32,000 nucleotides of DNA from assembly GCF_900079115.1 (NCBI RefSeq), contig NZ_LT549890.1, positions 2,850,001 through 2,882,000 of the forward strand. The letters are read 5' to 3'. The notes below the pieces were generated by a model. That model had not been told where the DNA came from and searched no databases. It saw only the letters and a list, made by a program, of their open reading frames with translations. Positions 2,275 through 10,971 of this stretch are shown here, piece after piece. The first letter of the stretch is position 1; every line of letters begins with the position of its first letter. This DNA comes from Saccharolobus solfataricus. GTDB lineage: Archaea; Thermoproteota; Thermoprotei_A; Sulfolobales; Sulfolobaceae. The translations under genes and the position numbers were made by a program.

Positions 2275-3332
2275 TGCTTTGTGGATTGCTTCAGAATTGT
2301 ACAAAAAGTTTATAAATTATTCGTTTAAGTATTACCTATGGAAAAGAGTAAGTACAAGAGGGACTGGAGCAAGTACGACGAGAACGTCATTACTAGATAT
2401 AAGTTGATGTTCCCCTTCTACGTATTCGAACATTGGTGGGACTTATTAGCAGAGGAGAACAGGAACGCTAGGACAAAGTATAAAGCTCCGAAGGAGTTCG
2501 ACGAATTCCTAGCCTTCCTCCACATCTTCCTACCTTACAGAGCAATAGAAGGAGTATTAAGAGCCTTAGAACAATTGAAGATCATCCCCACAAGCCTCGA
2601 TTACTCAACAATATGGAAGAGAGTGAGGAACATGAAAATAACCTTCCCCGAGGCAAGTGACGAACTTGAAGTAATTGCAGACGCTACAGGCATTAGCACA
2701 AACACGGGAGGACAATACATTGTTGCCAAGTGGGGTAAGACTAGGGATTCAAAATTCCTCAAGATCGAGATAGTAATGGACAATAACGAATTCAACGTGA
2801 TAAACGCTGAGGTCACTAGCAACGAGGTTGAAAGCGCTGTAAAAACAGTTAAGGATCTTCAAGATAAGGGAAAGAAGGTCAAGAAGTTTTATGGAGATAA
2901 GACATATGACGCCAATGAGGTTTACAAGACCGGAGTTGAGGTTGTAGTTCCTCCCAAGAAGAACGCTTCTACTAAAAGGGGCCATCTTGCTAGACGTAAG
3001 GCTGTGCGGGAGTTTAGGAAGTTGGGTTATGATCGTTGGAGGGAGGAGAAGGGTTATGGCGTTAGGTGGAGGGTCGAGTCCTTGTTCTCTGCGGTGAAGC
3101 GTACTTTTGGGGAATCGGTTAGGGCAACAAGTTTTGCTGGACAAGTAGTTGAGGCTAAGCTCAAGTTCTGGGCTTACGCGTGGATGGTTCACTTGGCGAA
3201 TTCTGTAGTCGGTAGGGCTCCGGGCATTAGGGTGTAAGCTTGAGAGGAACGTTGAAATAAATATTAATTACTGAAAAATTAGTGTTATACAATATCGTTT
3301 TAATGAGACAAATTGAACAAATCAACAAAGTA
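2275..3332 (+). mobile_element. ISC1058-type IS5-family insertion sequence, exactly 1058 bp
   Basis: Imperfect terminal inverted repeats: TGCTTTGTGGATTGCTTCA... at the left end versus the reverse complement of the right end, TACTTTGTTGATTTGTTCA... (about 15/19 identical). It has a flanking 9-bp direct repeat and a single 299-aa DDE transposase ORF. The element name is inferred from its length and from the Sulfolobus IS nomenclature recalled from memory. Confidence 0.85.
2338..3237 (+). CDS. IS5-family DDE transposase (ISC1058-type)
   Basis: 299 aa. Candidate catalytic positions lie in ..VIADATGIS.., ..FYGDKTYDANE.. and ..RWRVESLFSAVKRTFGE.. (the IS5-type E-containing motif). The ORF lies inside the IR-bounded element. 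Confidence 0.9.
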   Translation: MEKSKYKRDWSKYDENVITRYKLMFPFYVFEHWWDLLAEENRNARTKYKAPKEFDEFLAFLHIFLPYRAIEGVLRALEQLKIIPTSLDYSTIWKRVRNMKITFPEASDELEVIADATGISTNTGGQYIVAKWGKTRDSKFLKIEIVMDNNEFNVINAEVTSNEVESAVKTVKDLQDKGKKVKKFYGDKTYDANEVYKTGVEVVVPPKKNASTKRGHLARRKAVREFRKLGYDRWREEKGYGVRWRVESLFSAVKRTFGESVRATSFAGQVVEAKLKFWAYAWMVHLANSVVGRAPGIRV

Positions 3333-5956: not shown

Positions 5957-7443
5957 CTATCTATAATCTAGGATAACCCTTATAACAAGAGGAGCCCTTA
6001 TAACTTCCTCTATTTTTATCTTTAAACCTTCATCACTTAAACTCCACTCTAACTTACCTTTCCCATCTAATCTGCTTACATCTACTATTACAGCTTCTTC
6101 TATTAGCTTTAGATTTTTCATAAACGACCTTAACGTAATTTCCTTAGGCTTTCCGAAGAGAATAGCGTAAATATGCCTTTGTCGCGGATAATAGTCTTTC
6201 ACAGTGTATCTCACATCTTGATAGCCTAAAGTAATTTTTCTCTCTGTAAAGAATCCCCCTTCATTAATTCCAGAAGGACCTTCTCCGTAAACTCTCCACG
6301 GTTTTGATCCGAAAATCGCTTCGCCATTTACATTTAGCCAATCCCCAACATCAAGTAGAATTCTCTTAGCCTCTTCTGGTATCGTACCGTCAGCTTTAGG
6401 TCCTATATTCAAGAGAAAAACTCCATTTTTACTAACAACATCACCTAAATGGGATAATATAACACTAGGTAGCTTGTATTCAGCATCTTTGATGTAACCC
6501 CAGGATTTGTAGTCTATAGAAGTGTCAGCTAACCATGTGGAGGGATATACGTTCTTTATTGTTCCCCTTTCAGCTAAATCCGGTATGGCTGTACCTTCCC
6601 CAAATGCCCCTTGCTTGTAAATTATTACGGGTTCTATTCCCCATTTATATGACCTATTATAGTAATAGGACGCAAAGGCCTTCAAATATGGTTGGAAAGA
6701 GGGATTGGCAATCCACCAGTCGAAATAGACTAGCCATGGCCTATACTTTTCAACAGCCTCAACAATTCTAAGCAACCAATCCATTAGAAACTCATCATTT
6801 GGCTGTACATTATCCAGTGAAGGTGGATCTCTAGGATTTAGGGAAGCAGACTGAGCTGGGCCATATAAATCAAGATATCTGGGGTCCTTTACATCAGACT
6901 CTATTTTCATCCCTTGATCGAAAAACCACCAGTGCTCAGCCCTATGATACGAAATGCCAAATATTAGCCCTTGACCTTCAACAGCTTCCTTAAGTTCTCT
7001 AACAATGTCCCTTTTAGGTCCAATCTTGGTTGCACACCACCTAGTGTAATTTGATTCCCATAGTGCAAATCCATCGTGATGTTCTGCAACTAGGACTACG
7101 AATTTAGCTCCACTTTTCTTAAAGACCTTAGCCCACTCATATGGATCCCAATTCTCTCCAGTGAACATCGGTATGAAATCCTTATATCCGAAATCGGTTA
7201 CTGGGCCGAATTTTTTAGGTGATATTGGTGTTCTGGTCTATCTGGCATGTACATGTATCTAGGGTACCATTCATTACCAAATGCTGGTACTGAGTATACT
7301 CCCCAATGGATAAAAATACCGAATTTAGAGGTGGTAAACCACGATGGGACTATATACTTTTTTAATGAACTCCAAGTAGGTTTGAAAGGACCATTAGATG
7401 GTACTGGAAGTGATTTCAAGATTTTGTAAGAATTTTGTGACAT
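5957..7443 (-). CDS. fucA1: GH29 alpha-L-fucosidase, split into two ORFs joined by a programmed -1 ribosomal frameshift
   Basis: An 81-aa ORF (7443-7198) and a downstream ORF open to 5957 overlap in the -1 frame. Slipping at A-AAA-AAT gives ...HLKN|FGPVTDFGYKDFIPMFTGENWDPYEW..., a conceptual product of 78+14+403 = 495 aa with GH29-like sequence throughout. This matches the published S. solfataricus fucA1 (SSO11867/SSO3060) arrangement. Confidence 0.9.
7210..7216 (-). promoter_or_regulatory. -1 frameshift slippery heptamer A-AAA-AAT
   Basis: The minus strand reads cac cta aaa aat tcg gcc cag taa. The heptamer sits 4 codons before the 0-frame stop, and the -1 frame is open from here to 5957. 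Confidence 0.8.
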
Positions 7444-7546: not shown

Positions 7547-8284
7547 ATGCTTTCATTAACGTATAATTGGAAAGCTTTTAAACTTTTAAAAAAGTATGAA
7601 CTTGTGAGCCATAAGTACATTAACGTGATGGTTTCGCATCATGGCTGTTGGTCAGAGCTCACGAGTGTAAATTATATTGATACGTTAATTAACATTGAGT
7701 ACTCTAGTTTTGAGATACTTAAGGCAAGTAGGATTGCTATGATTAGAGGGAGTAAAGAAAATATTAAAGGGCAGATTAAGAACATTATAACTAAAGATAG
7801 GAGTATTATAGACTTTGATATATCAGAGATTGTTAGTGATAATAATAAGTACTCAATCTATTTAATATCAATGTTACAAGAGGCTGAGAATACGATGATA
7901 AGTAAACTGAGAGCTAAGGGTACTTCTATCATTGGGACTACCATACGAGATGGTAAGGAGATCTACGACGTTATAGTACCAAGAGACGTTAAGACTTTAG
8001 TTGTAGACGCCATAATGAAGGATGACAGGGTAAAAATTATCAACTTCGTGGAGAAGGACGTTAATGAGGAATTAATATTCAAAGTAATAAGTAGGAACTC
8101 GTTCGAAATGCTTCTAACTGAAAAGGAGAGAATGCTATTGAGAAAGGCAAGGGAGTTAGGTTATTTTAATGTGCCTAGAGATAGGAACTCTCAAGAACTA
8201 GCTAAACAATTAGGAGTTAGTAAGATGAATATCTCTTTCTCTTTAAGGAAGATACTTAAAAAAATCTCTGACTTGATAGATTAA
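7547..8284 (+). CDS. HTH_10 / Bat-like (COG3413-type) transcriptional regulator, divergent from fucA1
   Basis: The C-terminus LTEKERMLLRKARELGYFNVPRDRNSQELAKQLGVSKMNISFSLRKILKK matches the LTxxQxxxLxxAxxxGYFxxPR...LAxxLGISxxT..xxLR signature. The N-terminal HHGCWSE motif is typical of this family. The true start may be ATG 7628 (MVSHHGCW..), which is preceded by a TATA-like TTTTAAAAAAG. Confidence 0.75.
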   Translation: MLSLTYNWKAFKLLKKYELVSHKYINVMVSHHGCWSELTSVNYIDTLINIEYSSFEILKASRIAMIRGSKENIKGQIKNIITKDRSIIDFDISEIVSDNNKYSIYLISMLQEAENTMISKLRAKGTSIIGTTIRDGKEIYDVIVPRDVKTLVVDAIMKDDRVKIINFVEKDVNEELIFKVISRNSFEMLLTEKERMLLRKARELGYFNVPRDRNSQELAKQLGVSKMNISFSLRKILKKISDLID

Positions 8285-8285
8285 C

Positions 8286-9225
8286 TCAATCTGAACTTAA
8301 AGTTTTTAGTAAGATTTGGACAAATTTCTCATAATCGATGTCATATACGACTTCGGCGTTAGGTTTATTGTTACCAATAATATGTCCAGGGTCCACGTAA
8401 TCTATTATAGTGACACCTCTAGTCAACCCCTCATTAGTTTCAACATCTACGTGCTCTTTATGAGATTTTTTAATAATTTTTGGGTTAATGGCTATAGCTG
8501 CTGTAATAACGTCTGGATGTGGATTTCCCCTCATTCTTTGTATCTGCATTGAAAATGTTCTATAATGTGAATAAATCTTAACGTAAAAATTAGAAAGTTT
8601 GGTATTAAGGGATTTTATGAAATTTCATATATTAGGATCAATAGCATTAGCCACTGCAACCTCCCAAGGAACTAATGTTACGTTGGTGAAACCAGCGTGT
8701 AATGCTATCTTTACTGCATCTGGTCTACCCAAAAATTATATTCTGCTATGGGTGTAATGTTGCCTCTTCCATAGATTGTACCACCCATAATGTATAGGTG
8801 ATGTATACATTCAGTTAATCTAGGATACTTTAGATATGCTAAGGCTAAATTAGTTAACGGAGAGATAGCTAAAAACTCTAATACCTTAAAATACGTTTCA
8901 CATAACTCTGTTATAGCATCAAAAGCATGCTTACTTTGTGCCTTAAGTCTTATTGGTTTCACAATCTCATTTCCTACTCCTCCCTTTCCATGAACATCTT
9001 CTACGGTTTTAAAAGACTTAACTAGTGGTCTTTTTGAATTGGATATACTGGAATATCGATATTTAGAAACTCTAAAGCCCATAACATAGTGTCTACTTGC
9101 TGATTAAAGTTTACATTACCTTCAACAATAGTAATCCCGACAACTTGTATATTGTTTTTAATCAGCATTATCAAACTCATTATATCATCTTCTGCAGTGT
9201 CACAGTCTATTATGAAGTATCTCAT
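8286..9225 (-). pseudogene. inosine/uridine-preferring nucleoside hydrolase, disrupted by several frameshifts
   Basis: Fragments in different frames tile one IUNH-type protein. 9225-9022: [14 protein letters not shown].. (the DXDXXXDD motif). 9082-8711: ..[34 protein letters not shown]... About 8725-8620: ..[23 protein letters not shown]... 8549-8286: the C-terminal part. Confidence 0.8.
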
Positions 9226-9426: not shown

Positions 9427-9490
9427 CTGACTTTCTCACCGCCCTGGAAGGGCGATGGTTCCCCTTCCAGAGGGATCATCGTTCCCACCA
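9427..9490 (-). repeat. structured right-end module following a tnpB remnant (locus C of a 4-member family)
   Basis: The minus strand reads TGGTGGGAACGATGATCCCTCTGGAAGGGGAACCATCGCCCTTCCAGGGCGGTGAGAAAGTCAG. It contains a 9-bp hairpin, CTGGAAGGG/CCCTTCCAG, and starts directly after the tnpB-like stop codon. Confidence 0.5.
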
Positions 9491-9685
9491 TCAATTCGGG
9501 TTTACATCTCTCATCTGGTAGGCAGACGAGAGGGCCAGAGACCCCCTCCCGTTTAAATTCATAACTGCAATAACATCACGATCATTCTCATAACCGCATG
9601 AACACCTAAACCAACAATATCCCCTTTCTTCCATCCTTCTACCACACCTAGGGTTAGGAGTATGGTCGGTAGTATTTCTGAAGCT
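9491..9685 (-). pseudogene. C-terminal remnant of an IS200/IS605-family TnpB (OrfB)
   Basis: Translation is ..[48 protein letters not shown]... This matches the TnpB C-terminal zinc-finger region plus the RuvC-III motif (CPxCG...CxxCG...DRDxNAAxNI). The upstream part is separated by the IS110-type element, and most of the gene is missing. Confidence 0.65.
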
Positions 9686-10729
9686 AAGTCTTCGGTTTCC
9701 GGCGTGACCGACCCCTACTGTCGGACTGAACATTGTGAGAAAATCCACCCATATAGGTGTGACAAGGAGGTAGGGGTCCTAGGAATAGACGTGTCAAAAG
9801 ATAATTTAATCACGAGCAGGGGAGGAAAATACGAGAACAACCTAAAAGGCTATGAGAAAATCCTCGATATGAAGCCTTGCACGATAGTCCTAGAGCCCAC
9901 CGGAGTATACTCAATAAAGCCTTCCCAATACTTCAAGGAAAAAGGAATAAGAGTACTACAAGTAAGCCCAAACGTGCTATCAAGGGAAAAGGACTTCAGG
10001 GAAAAGAAAACAGATTTTTACGACGCAGAAAAATTAGAAAACATGGTCGACAAGGCAAAGGAGTACGAGTATAACGTCCTTAGAGAACTCGTAACTCTAT
10101 ACCTGTTCTTAAAGGACATGGAAGTAAAACAAAAGAACAGACTAAAGAGAGCACTATTCCTAGTAAGCGACAACGACAAGATAAATAAGGAGAGATTGGA
10201 AAGACTAGCAAGCGGAGACTTCGCACAAGAAGTACTCTACCAACTAGAATACACGCCAATAGTACTTGAAGAAGTCAAAATACTGGCTAAGGCCCTCTTT
10301 GAGACGCAAGAGAAGTTAAAAGAGGTCAAGGAGATGATAGAGAGCCAAGTACCGGAAGACCACGTCCTACTGACGATTCCGGGAGTTGGGAAGCTTGCTG
10401 CAGGGATAATCATTGGCGTTGTAGGTGATATTAGGCGCTTCCCTAAGCCTGAGTCTTTCGTAGCTTATTGCGGTCTAGATCCGGTAGTGGAGAGGAGCGG
10501 TAAGGCGGTGGTAAGTAAGGGAATCTCAAGGAGGGGTAACAAGTATTTGCGCAGCCTTTTCTACTTTCTTGCGCAGATGAACTGTTCAAAGAACCCGACC
10601 TTATTGAGGTTTTACGAGTCTCATAGGAATAGACTTCACGGTAGGAAGTTATACACTGCCTTGGCGAGAAAGTTGGCTAAGGTTGTGTGGAGCGTTTGGT
10701 ATAATAATAAGCCTTATGAGCCCAAGTGA
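9662..10729 (+). CDS. IS110-family (DEDD) transposase
   Basis: The N-terminal ..[11 protein letters not shown].. is the hallmark IS110 motif. The C-terminal half has ..[24 protein letters not shown].. and ..[13 protein letters not shown]...RGNKYLR... The annotated ATG at 9662 lies outside the inferred element boundary, so the true start is probably internal, for example GTG 9704. Confidence 0.85.
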
Positions 10730-10794
10730 CCCAAAATCGCCACGTGAATCCTTTCAATTCACGTGGCAATCTTAGTTGACACTATGCTTGAAGT
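9686..10794 (+). mobile_element. IS110-family insertion sequence (about 1105 bp) inserted into the tnpB remnant
   Basis: It carries a DEDD-type transposase ORF and has no terminal IRs. AAGT occurs at both junctions (9686-9689 and 10791-10794). Excising 1105 bp rejoins the tnpB-like fragments in frame. Boundaries are inferred and could be off by a few nt. Confidence 0.65.
10739..10767 (+). repeat. perfect 11-bp stem / 7-nt loop hairpin in the 3' non-coding end of the IS110-type element
   Basis: GCCACGTGAAT-CCTTTCA-ATTCACGTGGC, located 10 nt after the transposase stop codon. Confidence 0.8.
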
Positions 10795-10971
10795 TCAACC
10801 GAAATATTTATTACTGAACGCCCCCAACTTTGTAAAATACTTATCTAGATTCTTTATTTTAGCATCTTTACTAGTAAAGACGCAATAATGCTTAGCTTCA
10901 TTTAAAACCTCTAATTATATTAGAGATGTAAAGGGTTAAGCACTTAATAAGAAAACGTTTAATTATTAATT

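What the first reader, a model, noticed from the sequence alone, without database searches (positions are those of the whole stretch)
5957..7443. alpha-L-fucosidase expressed through a programmed -1 frameshift (A-AAA-AAT)
Two ORFs (81 aa, then 403 aa from the first Met) overlap in the -1 frame. The minus strand reads cac cta aaa aat tcg gcc cag taa. Slipping on A-AAA-AAT (7216-7210) yields ...HLKN-FGPVTDFGYKDFIPMFTGENW..., one continuous GH29-like protein. My codon count gives 495 aa, the size reported for full-length S. solfataricus fucA1 (SSO11867/SSO3060, Cobucci-Ponzano, Moracci and co-workers). Recoding of this kind has rarely been demonstrated in Archaea. It is already described, but it is the clearest non-standard decoding signal in the window and it anchors the taxonomic assignment. 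A weak stem (AAUUCGG-N8-CCGAUUU, one mismatch) starts within the slippery site; I do not regard it as proven.
Basis: partly seen in the sequence, partly recalled or inferred. Interest (0 to 1): 0.7.

Follow-up and report, generated by a model that had tools for sequence, protein, structure and literature searches.

The report
Known frameshifted fucosidase gene, recently broken
This is the already published split alpha-L-fucosidase gene (fucA1) of Saccharolobus solfataricus, read through by a -1 ribosomal slip at A-AAA-AAT; comparison with relatives adds that the break is a very young one-base loss that varies between close strains.

Summary
On the minus strand an 81-aa ORF (7443..7198) and a -1-frame ORF (open from 7237, first Met 7168, stop 5957) overlap by 40 nt. 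A-AAA-AAT sits at 7216..7210, and a -1 slip gives a continuous 495-aa GH29 protein. The two ORFs are exact matches to AAK43160.1 and AAK43159.1, the fucA1 fragments SSO11867/SSO3060 of S. solfataricus P2. Published work (PMC1616953) shows -1 frameshifting at this heptamer in E. coli and in S. solfataricus extracts. The finding is therefore already known.

- **Young break:** the closest intact alleles read CTA-AAA-AAA-TTC (A7). One of them (CP160827.2) differs from the window gene by that single A and nothing else in 1485 nt. More distant S. islandicus and S. shibatae genes read AAA-AAC-TTC.
- **Polymorphic break:** the interrupted A6 state lies on two haplotype backgrounds, each interleaved with intact A7 alleles.
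- **Not conserved:** 77 of 79 species-level homologues read through this site in one frame.
- **No dedicated stimulators:** the proposed CAC codons and stem are identical in intact genes. The stem is no better than shuffles and is unstable at 80 °C.

The slip mechanism stands. "Programmed" in the evolutionary sense is weakly supported.

The parts
5957..7443 (-). Whole split alpha-L-fucosidase gene fucA1 (SSO11867 + SSO3060). The conceptual product is a 495-aa GH29-A enzyme.
   Evidence: sequence and fusion; PF01120, 321 bits for the fusion; exact matches to AAK43160.1 and AAK43159.1; GH29 review lists these accessions as Ss-alpha-fuc, subfamily A.
7198..7443 (-). Zero-frame ORF1, 81 aa, N-terminal fragment. 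It holds Glu58 and ends at TAA 7200..7198.
   Evidence: [quoted passage not shown]
7210..7216 (-). Slippery heptamer A-AAA-AAT. It comprises the last base of CTA 7218-7216, AAA 7215-7213 and AAT 7212-7210. This is the site of the -1 shift.
   Evidence: [quoted passage not shown]
7198..7237 (-). 40-nt overlap in which both the zero frame and the -1 frame are open.
   Evidence: last stop in the ORF2 frame lies just before 7237; ORF1 stop at 7198-7200. This agrees with the published 40-base overlap.
5957..7210 (-). Part decoded in the -1 frame after the shift. The first codon is TTC (7210-7208, re-reading T7210) and the stop is TAG 5959-5957. It holds Asp242 and Glu292. Its first ATG, at 7168, gives the 403-aa ORF.
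   Evidence: The paper saw no product from SSO3060 alone.
7219..7230 (-). Two CAC His codons (7230-7228 and 7221-7219), proposed in the literature as 'rare codon' pause sites.
   Evidence: In this window CAC occurs at 3.9 per 1000 codons against 8.5 for CAT, so it is less used but not very rare. The same codons are present in intact S. islandicus and S. shibatae genes.
7191..7212 (-). It is not supported as a stimulator.
   Evidence: dG is -3.6 kcal/mol at 37 °C and +4.4 at 80 °C; z-scores run from -0.08 to -0.63 and the 7-pair stem is not part of the MFE fold of the longer segments; the sequence is identical in intact orthologues.

Best explanation
The locus is fucA1 of Saccharolobus solfataricus, a GH29-A alpha-L-fucosidase gene split by a missing base.

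Mechanism:
- Most ribosomes that start at ATG 7443 stop at TAA 7200-7198 and make an inactive 81-aa fragment.
- A minority slip one base backwards while tRNA-Lys and tRNA-Asn sit on AAA-AAT of A-AAA-AAT (7216-7210). They re-pair on AAA-AAA and continue with TTC in the -1 frame.
- This minority is about 10% in S. solfataricus extracts and 5% in E. coli, both published values.
- The result is the active 495-aa enzyme with the junction ...HLK-N-FGPV....
- Shown in the literature: the slip, its position in E. coli, and its dependence on the heptamer in both systems.
- Inferred: that tandem P/A-site slippage is the route in the native host.

Added here (shown): the break is a derived one-base loss.
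- More distant orthologues read AAA-AAC-TTC (K-N-F).
- The closest intact alleles read AAA-AAA-TTC, an A7 run (K-K-F).
- The window reads AAA-AAT-TCG (A6).
- A6 and A7 alleles coexist among near-identical genomes.

My inference: the 'signal' is a recent deletion in a mutable A-run (A7 to A6) that happens to leave a classical slippery heptamer. Expression is therefore throttled rather than lost. There is no evidence of dedicated stimulatory elements.
For: Identity and continuity:
- Exact protein matches to the P2 fucA1 fragments.
- The primer from the paper matches with only its designed mismatch.
- The GH29 domain is continuous only after the -1 shift, and the fusion aligns without a gap to PDB 7ljj across the junction.

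Mechanism, from PMC1616953:
- Junction peptides NFGPVTDFGYK and KFGPVTDFGYK were found by MS in E. coli.
- Efficiency was 5% in E. coli and about 10% in S. solfataricus cell-free translation.
- The sm and tm heptamer mutants gave no product in the archaeal system.

In vivo, from PMC8037382:
- A strain carrying the repaired gene has 8-fold more activity and 100-fold more mRNA.
- The deletion strain is viable.

Evolution:
- Three junction states were found in fetched DNA.
- CP160827.2 (L083) differs from the window gene only by the extra A, with 0 other differences in 1485 nt.
- JGI and ENA contigs 98.7-99.8% identical across the locus carry A6 or A7.
- 77 of 79 species-representative homologues read through residues 70-90 in one frame.
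- The flanking CAC codons and downstream sequence are identical in intact orthologues.
Against: - No junction peptide has been obtained from S. solfataricus cells. The native band runs about 8.7 kDa heavier than the recombinant enzyme and MS failed.
- The cell-free test used T7 transcripts, so a small contribution from polymerase slippage on A6 is not formally excluded there.
- No downstream structure is detectable, which is unusual for an efficient tandem-slippage site.
- The A7-to-A6 direction is inferred. Loss of the C from AAAAAAC-TTC would give the same window sequence in one step.
- Folding energies at 80 °C are extrapolated parameters.
Confidence: 0.85

Rival explanations
1. Adventitious bypass rather than programmed regulation. 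The gene suffered a recent, possibly recurrent, one-base deletion in a homopolymeric A-run. The low-level full-length product is an unselected by-product of the same run being slippery, as in the 'InDels arise in and are bypassed at homonucleotide repeats' model. The gene is drifting towards a pseudogene or is a tolerated low-expression allele. This rival concerns the status of the event, not the slip mechanism, so it overlaps with the best explanation.
For: - An intact allele differs from the window gene by one A only.
- A6 and A7 are interleaved on the locus tree. No SNP supports A6 monophyly, whereas 22 + 6 + 4 SNPs support groupings that mix A6 and A7.
- The frameshift is not conserved in S. 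islandicus, S. shibatae or 77 of 79 homologues.
- No dedicated stimulator is evident.
- The neighbouring nucleoside-hydrolase gene carries two similar one-base run deletions and is clearly decayed.
- The deletion strain is viable, and the wild-type mRNA is 100-fold lower than the repaired gene's mRNA, which the authors attribute to degradation of the stop-containing mRNA.
- A major recoding review only says the Sulfolobus case 'merits investigation'.
- The conceptual framework is in PMC3812077.
Against: - Efficiency of about 10% in the homologous system is high for error-level slippage.
- The published work reports condition-dependent changes: wild-type mRNA rose 10-fold after cold shock and also increased on xyloglucan, with a 2-fold rise in activity.
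- The A6 allele persists in all sequenced S. solfataricus isolates and in a second environmental lineage without further damage to the reading frames.
- Tandem slippage restores exactly the ancestral K-N-F protein, which the paper found 4-fold more heat-stable than K-K-F.
Confidence: 0.5
2. Transcriptional slippage. RNA polymerase adds one A while copying the A6/T6 run. This produces an in-frame A7 mRNA that is translated normally into the K-K-F protein, identical to the natural A7 alleles.
For: - Peptide B (KFGPVTDFGYK) seen in E. coli is the product expected from an A7 transcript.
- Both heptamer mutants that abolish the product in S. solfataricus also break the A-run.
- The template for the cell-free test was a T7 transcript.
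- None of the four papers on this gene that I searched discusses the possibility; the term occurs only in their reference lists.
Against: - Peptide A (N-F...) requires decoding of AAU in the zero frame followed by a ribosomal shift.
- The A-AAG-AAT mutant still frameshifts in E. coli and gives E-F..., which is only possible by ribosomal P-site slippage.
- To my knowledge, runs of six A are shorter than those that give appreciable polymerase slippage. This rests on memory and was not tested here.
Confidence: 0.08
3. Sequencing or assembly error. The gene is really intact (A7) in this genome.
For: Homopolymer length errors are common on some platforms, and close relatives do carry A7.
Against: - The identical A6 sequence occurs in several independent assemblies from different sources.
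- The authors cloned and fully re-sequenced the wild-type and mutant constructs, and the cloned wild-type gene produced a termination product with only 5% full-length protein.
Confidence: 0.01
4. Two separate functional polypeptides, or re-initiation at Met 7168, give an active enzyme without any frameshift.
For: Both ORFs individually score above the Pfam threshold, at 73 and 216 bits.
Against: - The split falls inside one catalytic domain (profile positions 9-74 and 88-345).
- ORF1 carries Glu58 and ORF2 carries Asp242 and Glu292.
- The paper detected no SSO3060-only product and states that the N-terminal piece is not an independent domain.
Confidence: 0.02

Closest known systems
fucA1 (SSO11867/SSO3060) of Saccharolobus solfataricus P2, Cobucci-Ponzano et al. 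2003/2006
   Same: Identical. The two ORF products, the 40-nt overlap, the A-AAA-AAT heptamer, the 495-aa product and the primer sequence all match.
   Different: Nothing differs at the locus. The window is also 100% identical over 6.2 kb to CP033235.1, so the exact strain is not fixed by this gene.
E. coli dnaX -1 programmed frameshift (A-AAA-AAG)
   Same: Both are cellular genes with an A-rich X-XXY-YYZ heptamer decoded by tRNA-Lys. The S. solfataricus paper cites dnaX as the model.
   Different: The paper cites dnaX as setting the ratio of two functional products, tau and gamma. From my own knowledge, not tested here, dnaX also uses an upstream SD-like element and a strong downstream stem-loop and is conserved. 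Here the zero-frame product is an inactive fragment, no structure is detectable, and the shift is not conserved.
Helicobacter pylori alpha(1,2)-fucosyltransferase (futC)
   Same: The S. solfataricus paper cites it as the only other carbohydrate-active enzyme gene interrupted by a -1 frameshift and expressed by programmed frameshifting. That its interruption lies at a repeat tract that varies between strains, on top of a slippery heptamer, is my recollection.
   Different: In futC, tract-length switching is an established phase-variation mechanism with a clear selective rationale (immune evasion). Here, switching is only suggested by A6/A7 polyphyly, and recombination is not excluded.
Bypass of frame-shifting InDels at homonucleotide repeats (Rockah-Shmuel et al. 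2013, PMC3812077)
   Same: The one-base indel lies in a homonucleotide run, and that same run promotes slippage that restores some full-length protein. That paper cites the fucosidase work.
   Different: That model treats bypass as sporadic infidelity. The reported efficiency of about 10% in the homologous system and the strict heptamer dependence are closer to a classical slippery site.
Intact orthologues in S. islandicus (L.S.2.15, Y.N.15.51, M.14.25, REY15A-type) and S. shibatae
   Same: They are 90-100% identical proteins in the same gene neighbourhood, with the HTH_10 regulator upstream and ABC permeases downstream. Flanking codons are identical.
   Different: Their reading frame is uninterrupted. 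The junction reads AAA-AAC-TTC (K-N-F) or AAA-AAA-TTC (K-K-F).

Membership tests
GH29 alpha-L-fucosidase (Pfam PF01120) | Significant match to the family profile over the whole catalytic domain | tested here: met
   The fusion scores 321.3 bits (cut-off 25.2) over profile positions 10-345 of 345. ORF1 alone covers 9-74 and ORF2 alone covers 88-345.
GH29 alpha-L-fucosidase (Pfam PF01120) | Catalytic nucleophile Asp and acid/base Glu residues at conserved positions | tested here: met
   Glu58, Asp242 and Glu292 are present. Asp242, in the motif YFDWW, aligns with the D of WFDWT in PDB 7ljj. The catalytic roles of these residues come from Cobucci-Ponzano 2003/2005 as I recall them, and the paper says ORF1 holds essential catalytic residues.
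GH29 alpha-L-fucosidase (Pfam PF01120) | [quoted passage not shown] | not testable with these tools
   Published values are KM 0.028 mM and kcat 287 s-1 on 4NP-Fuc. The closest solved structure (7ljj) is named an exo-alpha-L-galactosidase, so specificity cannot be read from homology alone.
Programmed -1 ribosomal frameshift site | X-XXY-YYZ slippery heptamer in the zero frame at the point where homology changes frame | tested here: met
   A-AAA-AAT lies at 7216-7210. The alignment to intact homologues has no gap between ...HLKN and FGPV....
Programmed -1 ribosomal frameshift site | Stimulatory RNA structure 5-9 nt downstream of the heptamer (spacing as stated in PMC8211752) | tested here: not met
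MFE z-scores run from -0.08 to -0.63 against shuffles. The caveat is that 80 °C parameters are extrapolated, and P-site-only slippage does not need a structure.
Programmed -1 ribosomal frameshift site | Phylogenetic conservation of the frameshift and its signals among orthologues | tested here: not met
   The gene is intact in S. islandicus and S. shibatae. It is polymorphic (A6/A7) among loci 98.7-99.8% identical. 77 of 79 homologues read through in one frame, and the few frameshifted ones break elsewhere.
Programmed -1 ribosomal frameshift site | Experimental detection of the trans-frame product and its dependence on the heptamer | not testable with these tools
   Published: MS junction peptides in E. 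coli, and full-length product lost in the sm and tm mutants in the S. solfataricus cell-free system. The junction peptide from native cells is still missing.
Phase-variable (contingency) homopolymer locus | In-gene homopolymer whose length differs between close relatives and switches the frame on or off | tested here: met
   A6 (interrupted) and A7 (intact) occur in genes with 0-3 other differences.
Phase-variable (contingency) homopolymer locus | Independent, recurrent length changes | tested here: inconclusive
   A6 occurs in two clades, each with A7 sisters, and no SNP supports A6 monophyly. However, a tract of about 1.37 kb around the junction has no clade-distinguishing SNP, so a short recombination tract could explain the pattern equally well. 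One supporting contig (L103) looks like a 454 assembly and is unreliable for run length.
Phase-variable (contingency) homopolymer locus | High switching rate within clonal populations | not testable with these tools
   This needs deep amplicon sequencing of cultures.

The most novel reading that the evidence does not exclude
The A-run in fucA is a naturally switching site in Saccharolobus populations. Genomes toggle between A7 (full expression, K-K-F enzyme) and A6 (about 10% expression through ribosomal slippage, which restores the ancestral and more heat-stable K-N-F enzyme). What has been described as the only archaeal cellular 'programmed' -1 frameshift would then be one state of a two-tier, phase-variation-like expression switch, or simply a recurrent lesion with built-in leakiness.
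Probability: 0.3. Interest if true: 0.55.

Novelty: already known. Interest (0 to 1): 0.3.

Why it matters
The locus is the reference case for -1 ribosomal frameshifting in a cellular archaeal gene, so recognising it correctly anchors both the annotation and the organism. The comparative result matters for how the case is cited. An intact allele differs by one A, the frameshift is polymorphic and not conserved, and the proposed stimulators are ordinary coding sequence shared with intact genes. This fits a young homopolymer deletion with built-in leakiness better than an evolved regulatory device. If confirmed, the claim that programmed -1 frameshifting of cellular genes is a conserved regulatory strategy in Archaea would rest on weaker ground. 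The locus would instead become a natural model for how slippery runs buffer the frameshift mutations they cause.

Tried and rejected
- **Genome scan:** the scan with the fusion returned no Saccharolobus locus (the best hit was Ignisphaera at 72%), so it could not show close relatives. These came from the protein cluster and exact-protein look-ups instead.
- **Selection test:** I judged a dN/dS test on the interrupted allele not worthwhile. Interrupted and intact alleles differ by only 0-3 substitutions, so there is no power.
- **RNA structure:** I searched for a downstream stimulatory structure at several window sizes and at 37-80 °C. Nothing was better than shuffles. Rfam gave no hit in the window and no tRNA genes are present.
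- **Literature on intact alleles:** the four held papers on fucA do not mention S. islandicus in this context. The 2012 Extremophiles review is not held, so prior description there cannot be excluded.
- **Convergent breaks:** I looked for frame breaks at the same site in other GH29 genes and found none. The four frameshifted homologues break at other positions, and three of the four are metagenome-assembled genomes.
- **Recurrent deletion versus recombination:** site-compatibility counts left this unresolved, because about 1.37 kb around the junction carries no clade-distinguishing SNP.
Full report
**1. Observation**

The minus strand of the window reads CAC CTA AAA AAT TCG GCC CAG TAA.
- ORF1 runs 7443..7198 and encodes 81 aa. 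A second ORF in the -1 frame runs from its first ATG at 7168 to the stop at 5957 and encodes 403 aa.
- The second frame is open from 7237. This gives a 40-nt overlap and a 426-codon open frame.
- AAAAAAT occupies 7216..7210. Shifting -1 after AAT gives ...HLKN-FGPVTDFGYKDFIPMFTGENW... and a product of 78 + 14 + 403 = 495 aa.

The heptamer alone is not remarkable in this 36.7% G+C sequence. There are 14 copies against 21.3 +/- 4.7 expected, and 19 in-frame X-XXY-YYZ heptamers in 6939 codons. What makes it non-random is its position.
- ORF1 matches Pfam PF01120 at profile positions 9-74 and ORF2 at 88-345. The fusion matches 10-345 at 321 bits.
- The fusion aligns without any gap across the junction to solved GH29 structures. 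An example is pehqyhlknfgpvtdfgykdfipmf against PINKYHVQTYGPLTKFGYKDFIPMF of 7ljj.

**2. Identity**

- Both ORF products are exact matches to AAK43160.1 and AAK43159.1. These are annotated as the N- and C-terminal fragments of fucA1 of Saccharolobus solfataricus P2. The same accessions are listed for Ss-alpha-fuc, GH29 subfamily A, in a family review.
- A mutagenic primer printed in the 2006 paper matches 7233..7202 with only its designed mismatch.
- The paper describes ORFs of 81 and 426 aa, a 40-base overlap, A-AAA-AAT, flanking CAC codons, a putative stem-loop and a 495-aa product.

The finding is therefore the published gene.

**3. What is experimentally established (PMC1616953 and PMC8037382)**

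In E. coli:
- The wild-type split gene yields about 5% full-length protein.
- Two junction peptides were identified. NFGPVTDFGYK arises from tandem P/A-site slippage. KFGPVTDFGYK arises from P-site-only slippage.
- The C-AAG-AAC mutant abolishes frameshifting. The A-AAG-AAT mutant shifts only by the P-site route.

In S. solfataricus:
- Cell-free translation at 70 °C from T7 transcripts gives about 10% full-length product from the wild-type gene and none from either mutant.
- In cells, antibody detects a band and a very low activity.
- MS of the native protein failed, and the band runs about 8.7 kDa heavier than the recombinant enzyme.
- A strain with the repaired gene has 8-fold more activity and 100-fold more mRNA. 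A deletion strain is viable. Wild-type mRNA rises after cold shock and on xyloglucan.

The slip and its site are therefore shown. The exact route in the native host is inferred.

**4. New comparative evidence**

The 2006 paper stated that fucA1 was the only archaeal fucosidase gene known. Many are now available.
- The 90%-identity protein cluster of the window's product contains intact 495- or 500-aa orthologues from S. islandicus and S. shibatae.
- I fetched their DNA and found three junction states:

| State | Junction | Frame | Carriers |
|---|---|---|---|
| S1 | CTA AAA AAC TTC (K-N-F) | intact | S. islandicus M.14.25 type, REY15A/LAL14 type, S. shibatae |
| S2 | CTA AAA AAA TTC (A7, K-K-F) | intact | S. 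islandicus L.S.2.15 and Y.N.15.51, CP160827.2, JBRCUT01, ENA and JGI contigs |
| S3 | CTA AAA AAT TCG (A6) | interrupted | the window, CP033235.1, several Logan runs, a second environmental lineage |

- More distant homologues in Ignisphaera encode E-N-F and K-S-F at this junction, and the S. islandicus and S. shibatae outgroups read AAC, so S1 looks ancestral.
- The S2 alleles are the nearest relatives of the window. CP160827.2 (L083) differs from the window gene only by the extra A, with 0 other differences in 1485 nt. Whole loci are 98.7-99.8% identical.
- The simplest history is AAC to AAA, which creates an A7 run, followed by loss of one A. Direct loss of the C from S1 gives the same sequence and cannot be excluded.

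**5. The break is polymorphic and possibly recurrent**

A scan of JGI metagenomes for the junction found three A6 and two A7 contigs. I aligned 4.4 kb of the locus from 16 sources. Site counts were made on the 12 A6 or A7 sequences with full-length coverage, polarised with S. islandicus M.14.25 (L086).
- 22 SNPs and 11 indel columns separate two clades.
- Clade I contains the window and CP033235.1 (A6) together with L.S.2.15 and CP160827.2 (A7).
- Clade II contains five A6 contigs together with three A7 contigs.
- Six further SNPs join one A7 contig (L084) to the clade II A6 group.
- Four SNPs join the window to its A7 relatives.
- No SNP supports monophyly of A6.

So either the deletion happened at least twice (or reverted), or a short tract was exchanged by recombination. 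About 1.37 kb around the junction carries no clade-distinguishing SNP, so I cannot decide between these. One further A7 contig on the clade II gene haplotype (L103) looks like a 454 assembly, and I do not rely on it.

Outside this group the site is not a frameshift site at all. 77 of 79 species-representative homologues read through residues 70-90 in one frame, and the four frameshifted ones break elsewhere.

**6. Proposed stimulators**

Its dG is -3.6 kcal/mol at 37 °C and +4.4 at 80 °C, and it starts inside the heptamer.
- Segments of 35-90 nt downstream fold no better than dinucleotide shuffles, with z-scores from -0.08 to -0.63. At 80 °C the local MFE is the open chain.
- CAC is the less-used His codon in this window (3.9 against 8.5 per 1000) but is not very rare.
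- The CAC codons and the following 60 nt are identical in intact S. islandicus genes and nearly so in S. shibatae. They are coding sequence for the conserved FGPVTDFGYKDF motif that predates the frameshift. They are not adaptations to it.

**7. Interpretation**

- Mechanism: a -1 ribosomal slip on A-AAA-AAT gives the 495-aa enzyme. I hold this with high confidence, resting on the published experiments.
- Status: the comparative data favour a very young deletion in a mutable A-run that leaves a slippery heptamer. The gene is throttled rather than lost.
- This fits the idea that indels arise in, and are bypassed at, homonucleotide runs (PMC3812077). It also fits the cautious wording of a major recoding review, which only says the Sulfolobus case merits investigation.
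- Tandem slippage on the A6 allele restores the ancestral K-N-F protein. The paper found that protein 4-fold more heat-stable at 80 °C than K-K-F and questioned whether K-K-F functions in the archaeon. Yet K-K-F is exactly what the natural A7 alleles encode.
- Against a purely adventitious reading stand the relatively high efficiency of about 10% and the reported condition-dependent mRNA changes.
- Transcriptional slippage is unlikely as the main route, because of the N-F peptide and the behaviour of the A-AAG-AAT mutant in E. coli. It has not been tested in the native host.

**8. Context**

- The gene lies between a divergently oriented HTH_10 regulator gene (7547..8284) and ABC transporter genes. 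This arrangement is conserved in all relatives.
- The region shows decay typical of S. solfataricus. There are two IS insertions and a nucleoside-hydrolase pseudogene with two one-base run deletions.

**9. Verdict**

The feature is already known, and its novelty as a finding is low. The useful addition is that the frameshift is a one-base, polymorphic, non-conserved change without detectable dedicated stimulators. This weakens the evolutionary sense of 'programmed' and suggests concrete tests.

Noticed in passing
window 8289-9225 (minus strand): An inosine-uridine nucleoside hydrolase gene (PF01156) is broken into three frames by two one-base deletions in short runs (AAA to AA, CCC to CC). The comparison is with the intact 313-aa orthologue of S. 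islandicus M.14.25 (L086:1217-2158), which is 93-97% identical at the protein level. It is a second interrupted gene about 850 bp from fucA1.
   Followed up: yes
window 2275-3328: An insertion of about 1054 bp carries a 299-aa DDE transposase ORF (2338..3237, PF01609). It lies between the ABC ATPase gene and the permease genes and is flanked by a repeated AGTATCAGAATGA. The insertion is absent from L080, L082, L083 and the other related loci.
   Followed up: partly
window 9427-10830: An IS110-family element (355-aa transposase at 9662..10729, PF02371/PF01548) is absent from S. islandicus M.14.25 (L086). It is present upstream of the fucosidase locus in L082 and L092.
   Followed up: partly
P0131 (S. 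shibatae QXJ33916.1, 422 aa): Another strain's fucosidase orthologue diverges into unrelated sequence after ...DVGDWLN and ends early. This suggests an independent disruption of the same gene at a different place.
   Followed up: no
fusion protein against PDB: The closest solved structures (7ljj, 7lnp; E about 1e-116) are named exo-alpha-L-galactosidases, and a near-identical chain (7snk) is named alpha-L-fucosidase. Substrate specificity within this GH29 branch is therefore not uniform.
   Followed up: no
L103 (JGI 2100351008, contig BSEYNP_contig01656, 58 reads): This contig carries the clade II gene haplotype (P356S and G at gene position 1173) with an A7 run, whereas five other contigs of that haplotype have A6. 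The naming suggests a 454 assembly, so the run length may be an error.
   Followed up: partly
L032, L042, L048, L050 (genome contigs homologues): Four bacterial GH29 homologues show frame changes at query residues of about 195-350, none at the S. solfataricus site. Three are metagenome-assembled genomes and one is the Zobellia laminariae CP130738.1 chromosome.
   Followed up: partly
(genome-contig scan): No Saccharolobus genome was returned for the fusion protein, although such genomes clearly encode it. The nearest hit was Ignisphaera at 72%. The source region may be masked or not indexed in that collection.
   Followed up: no
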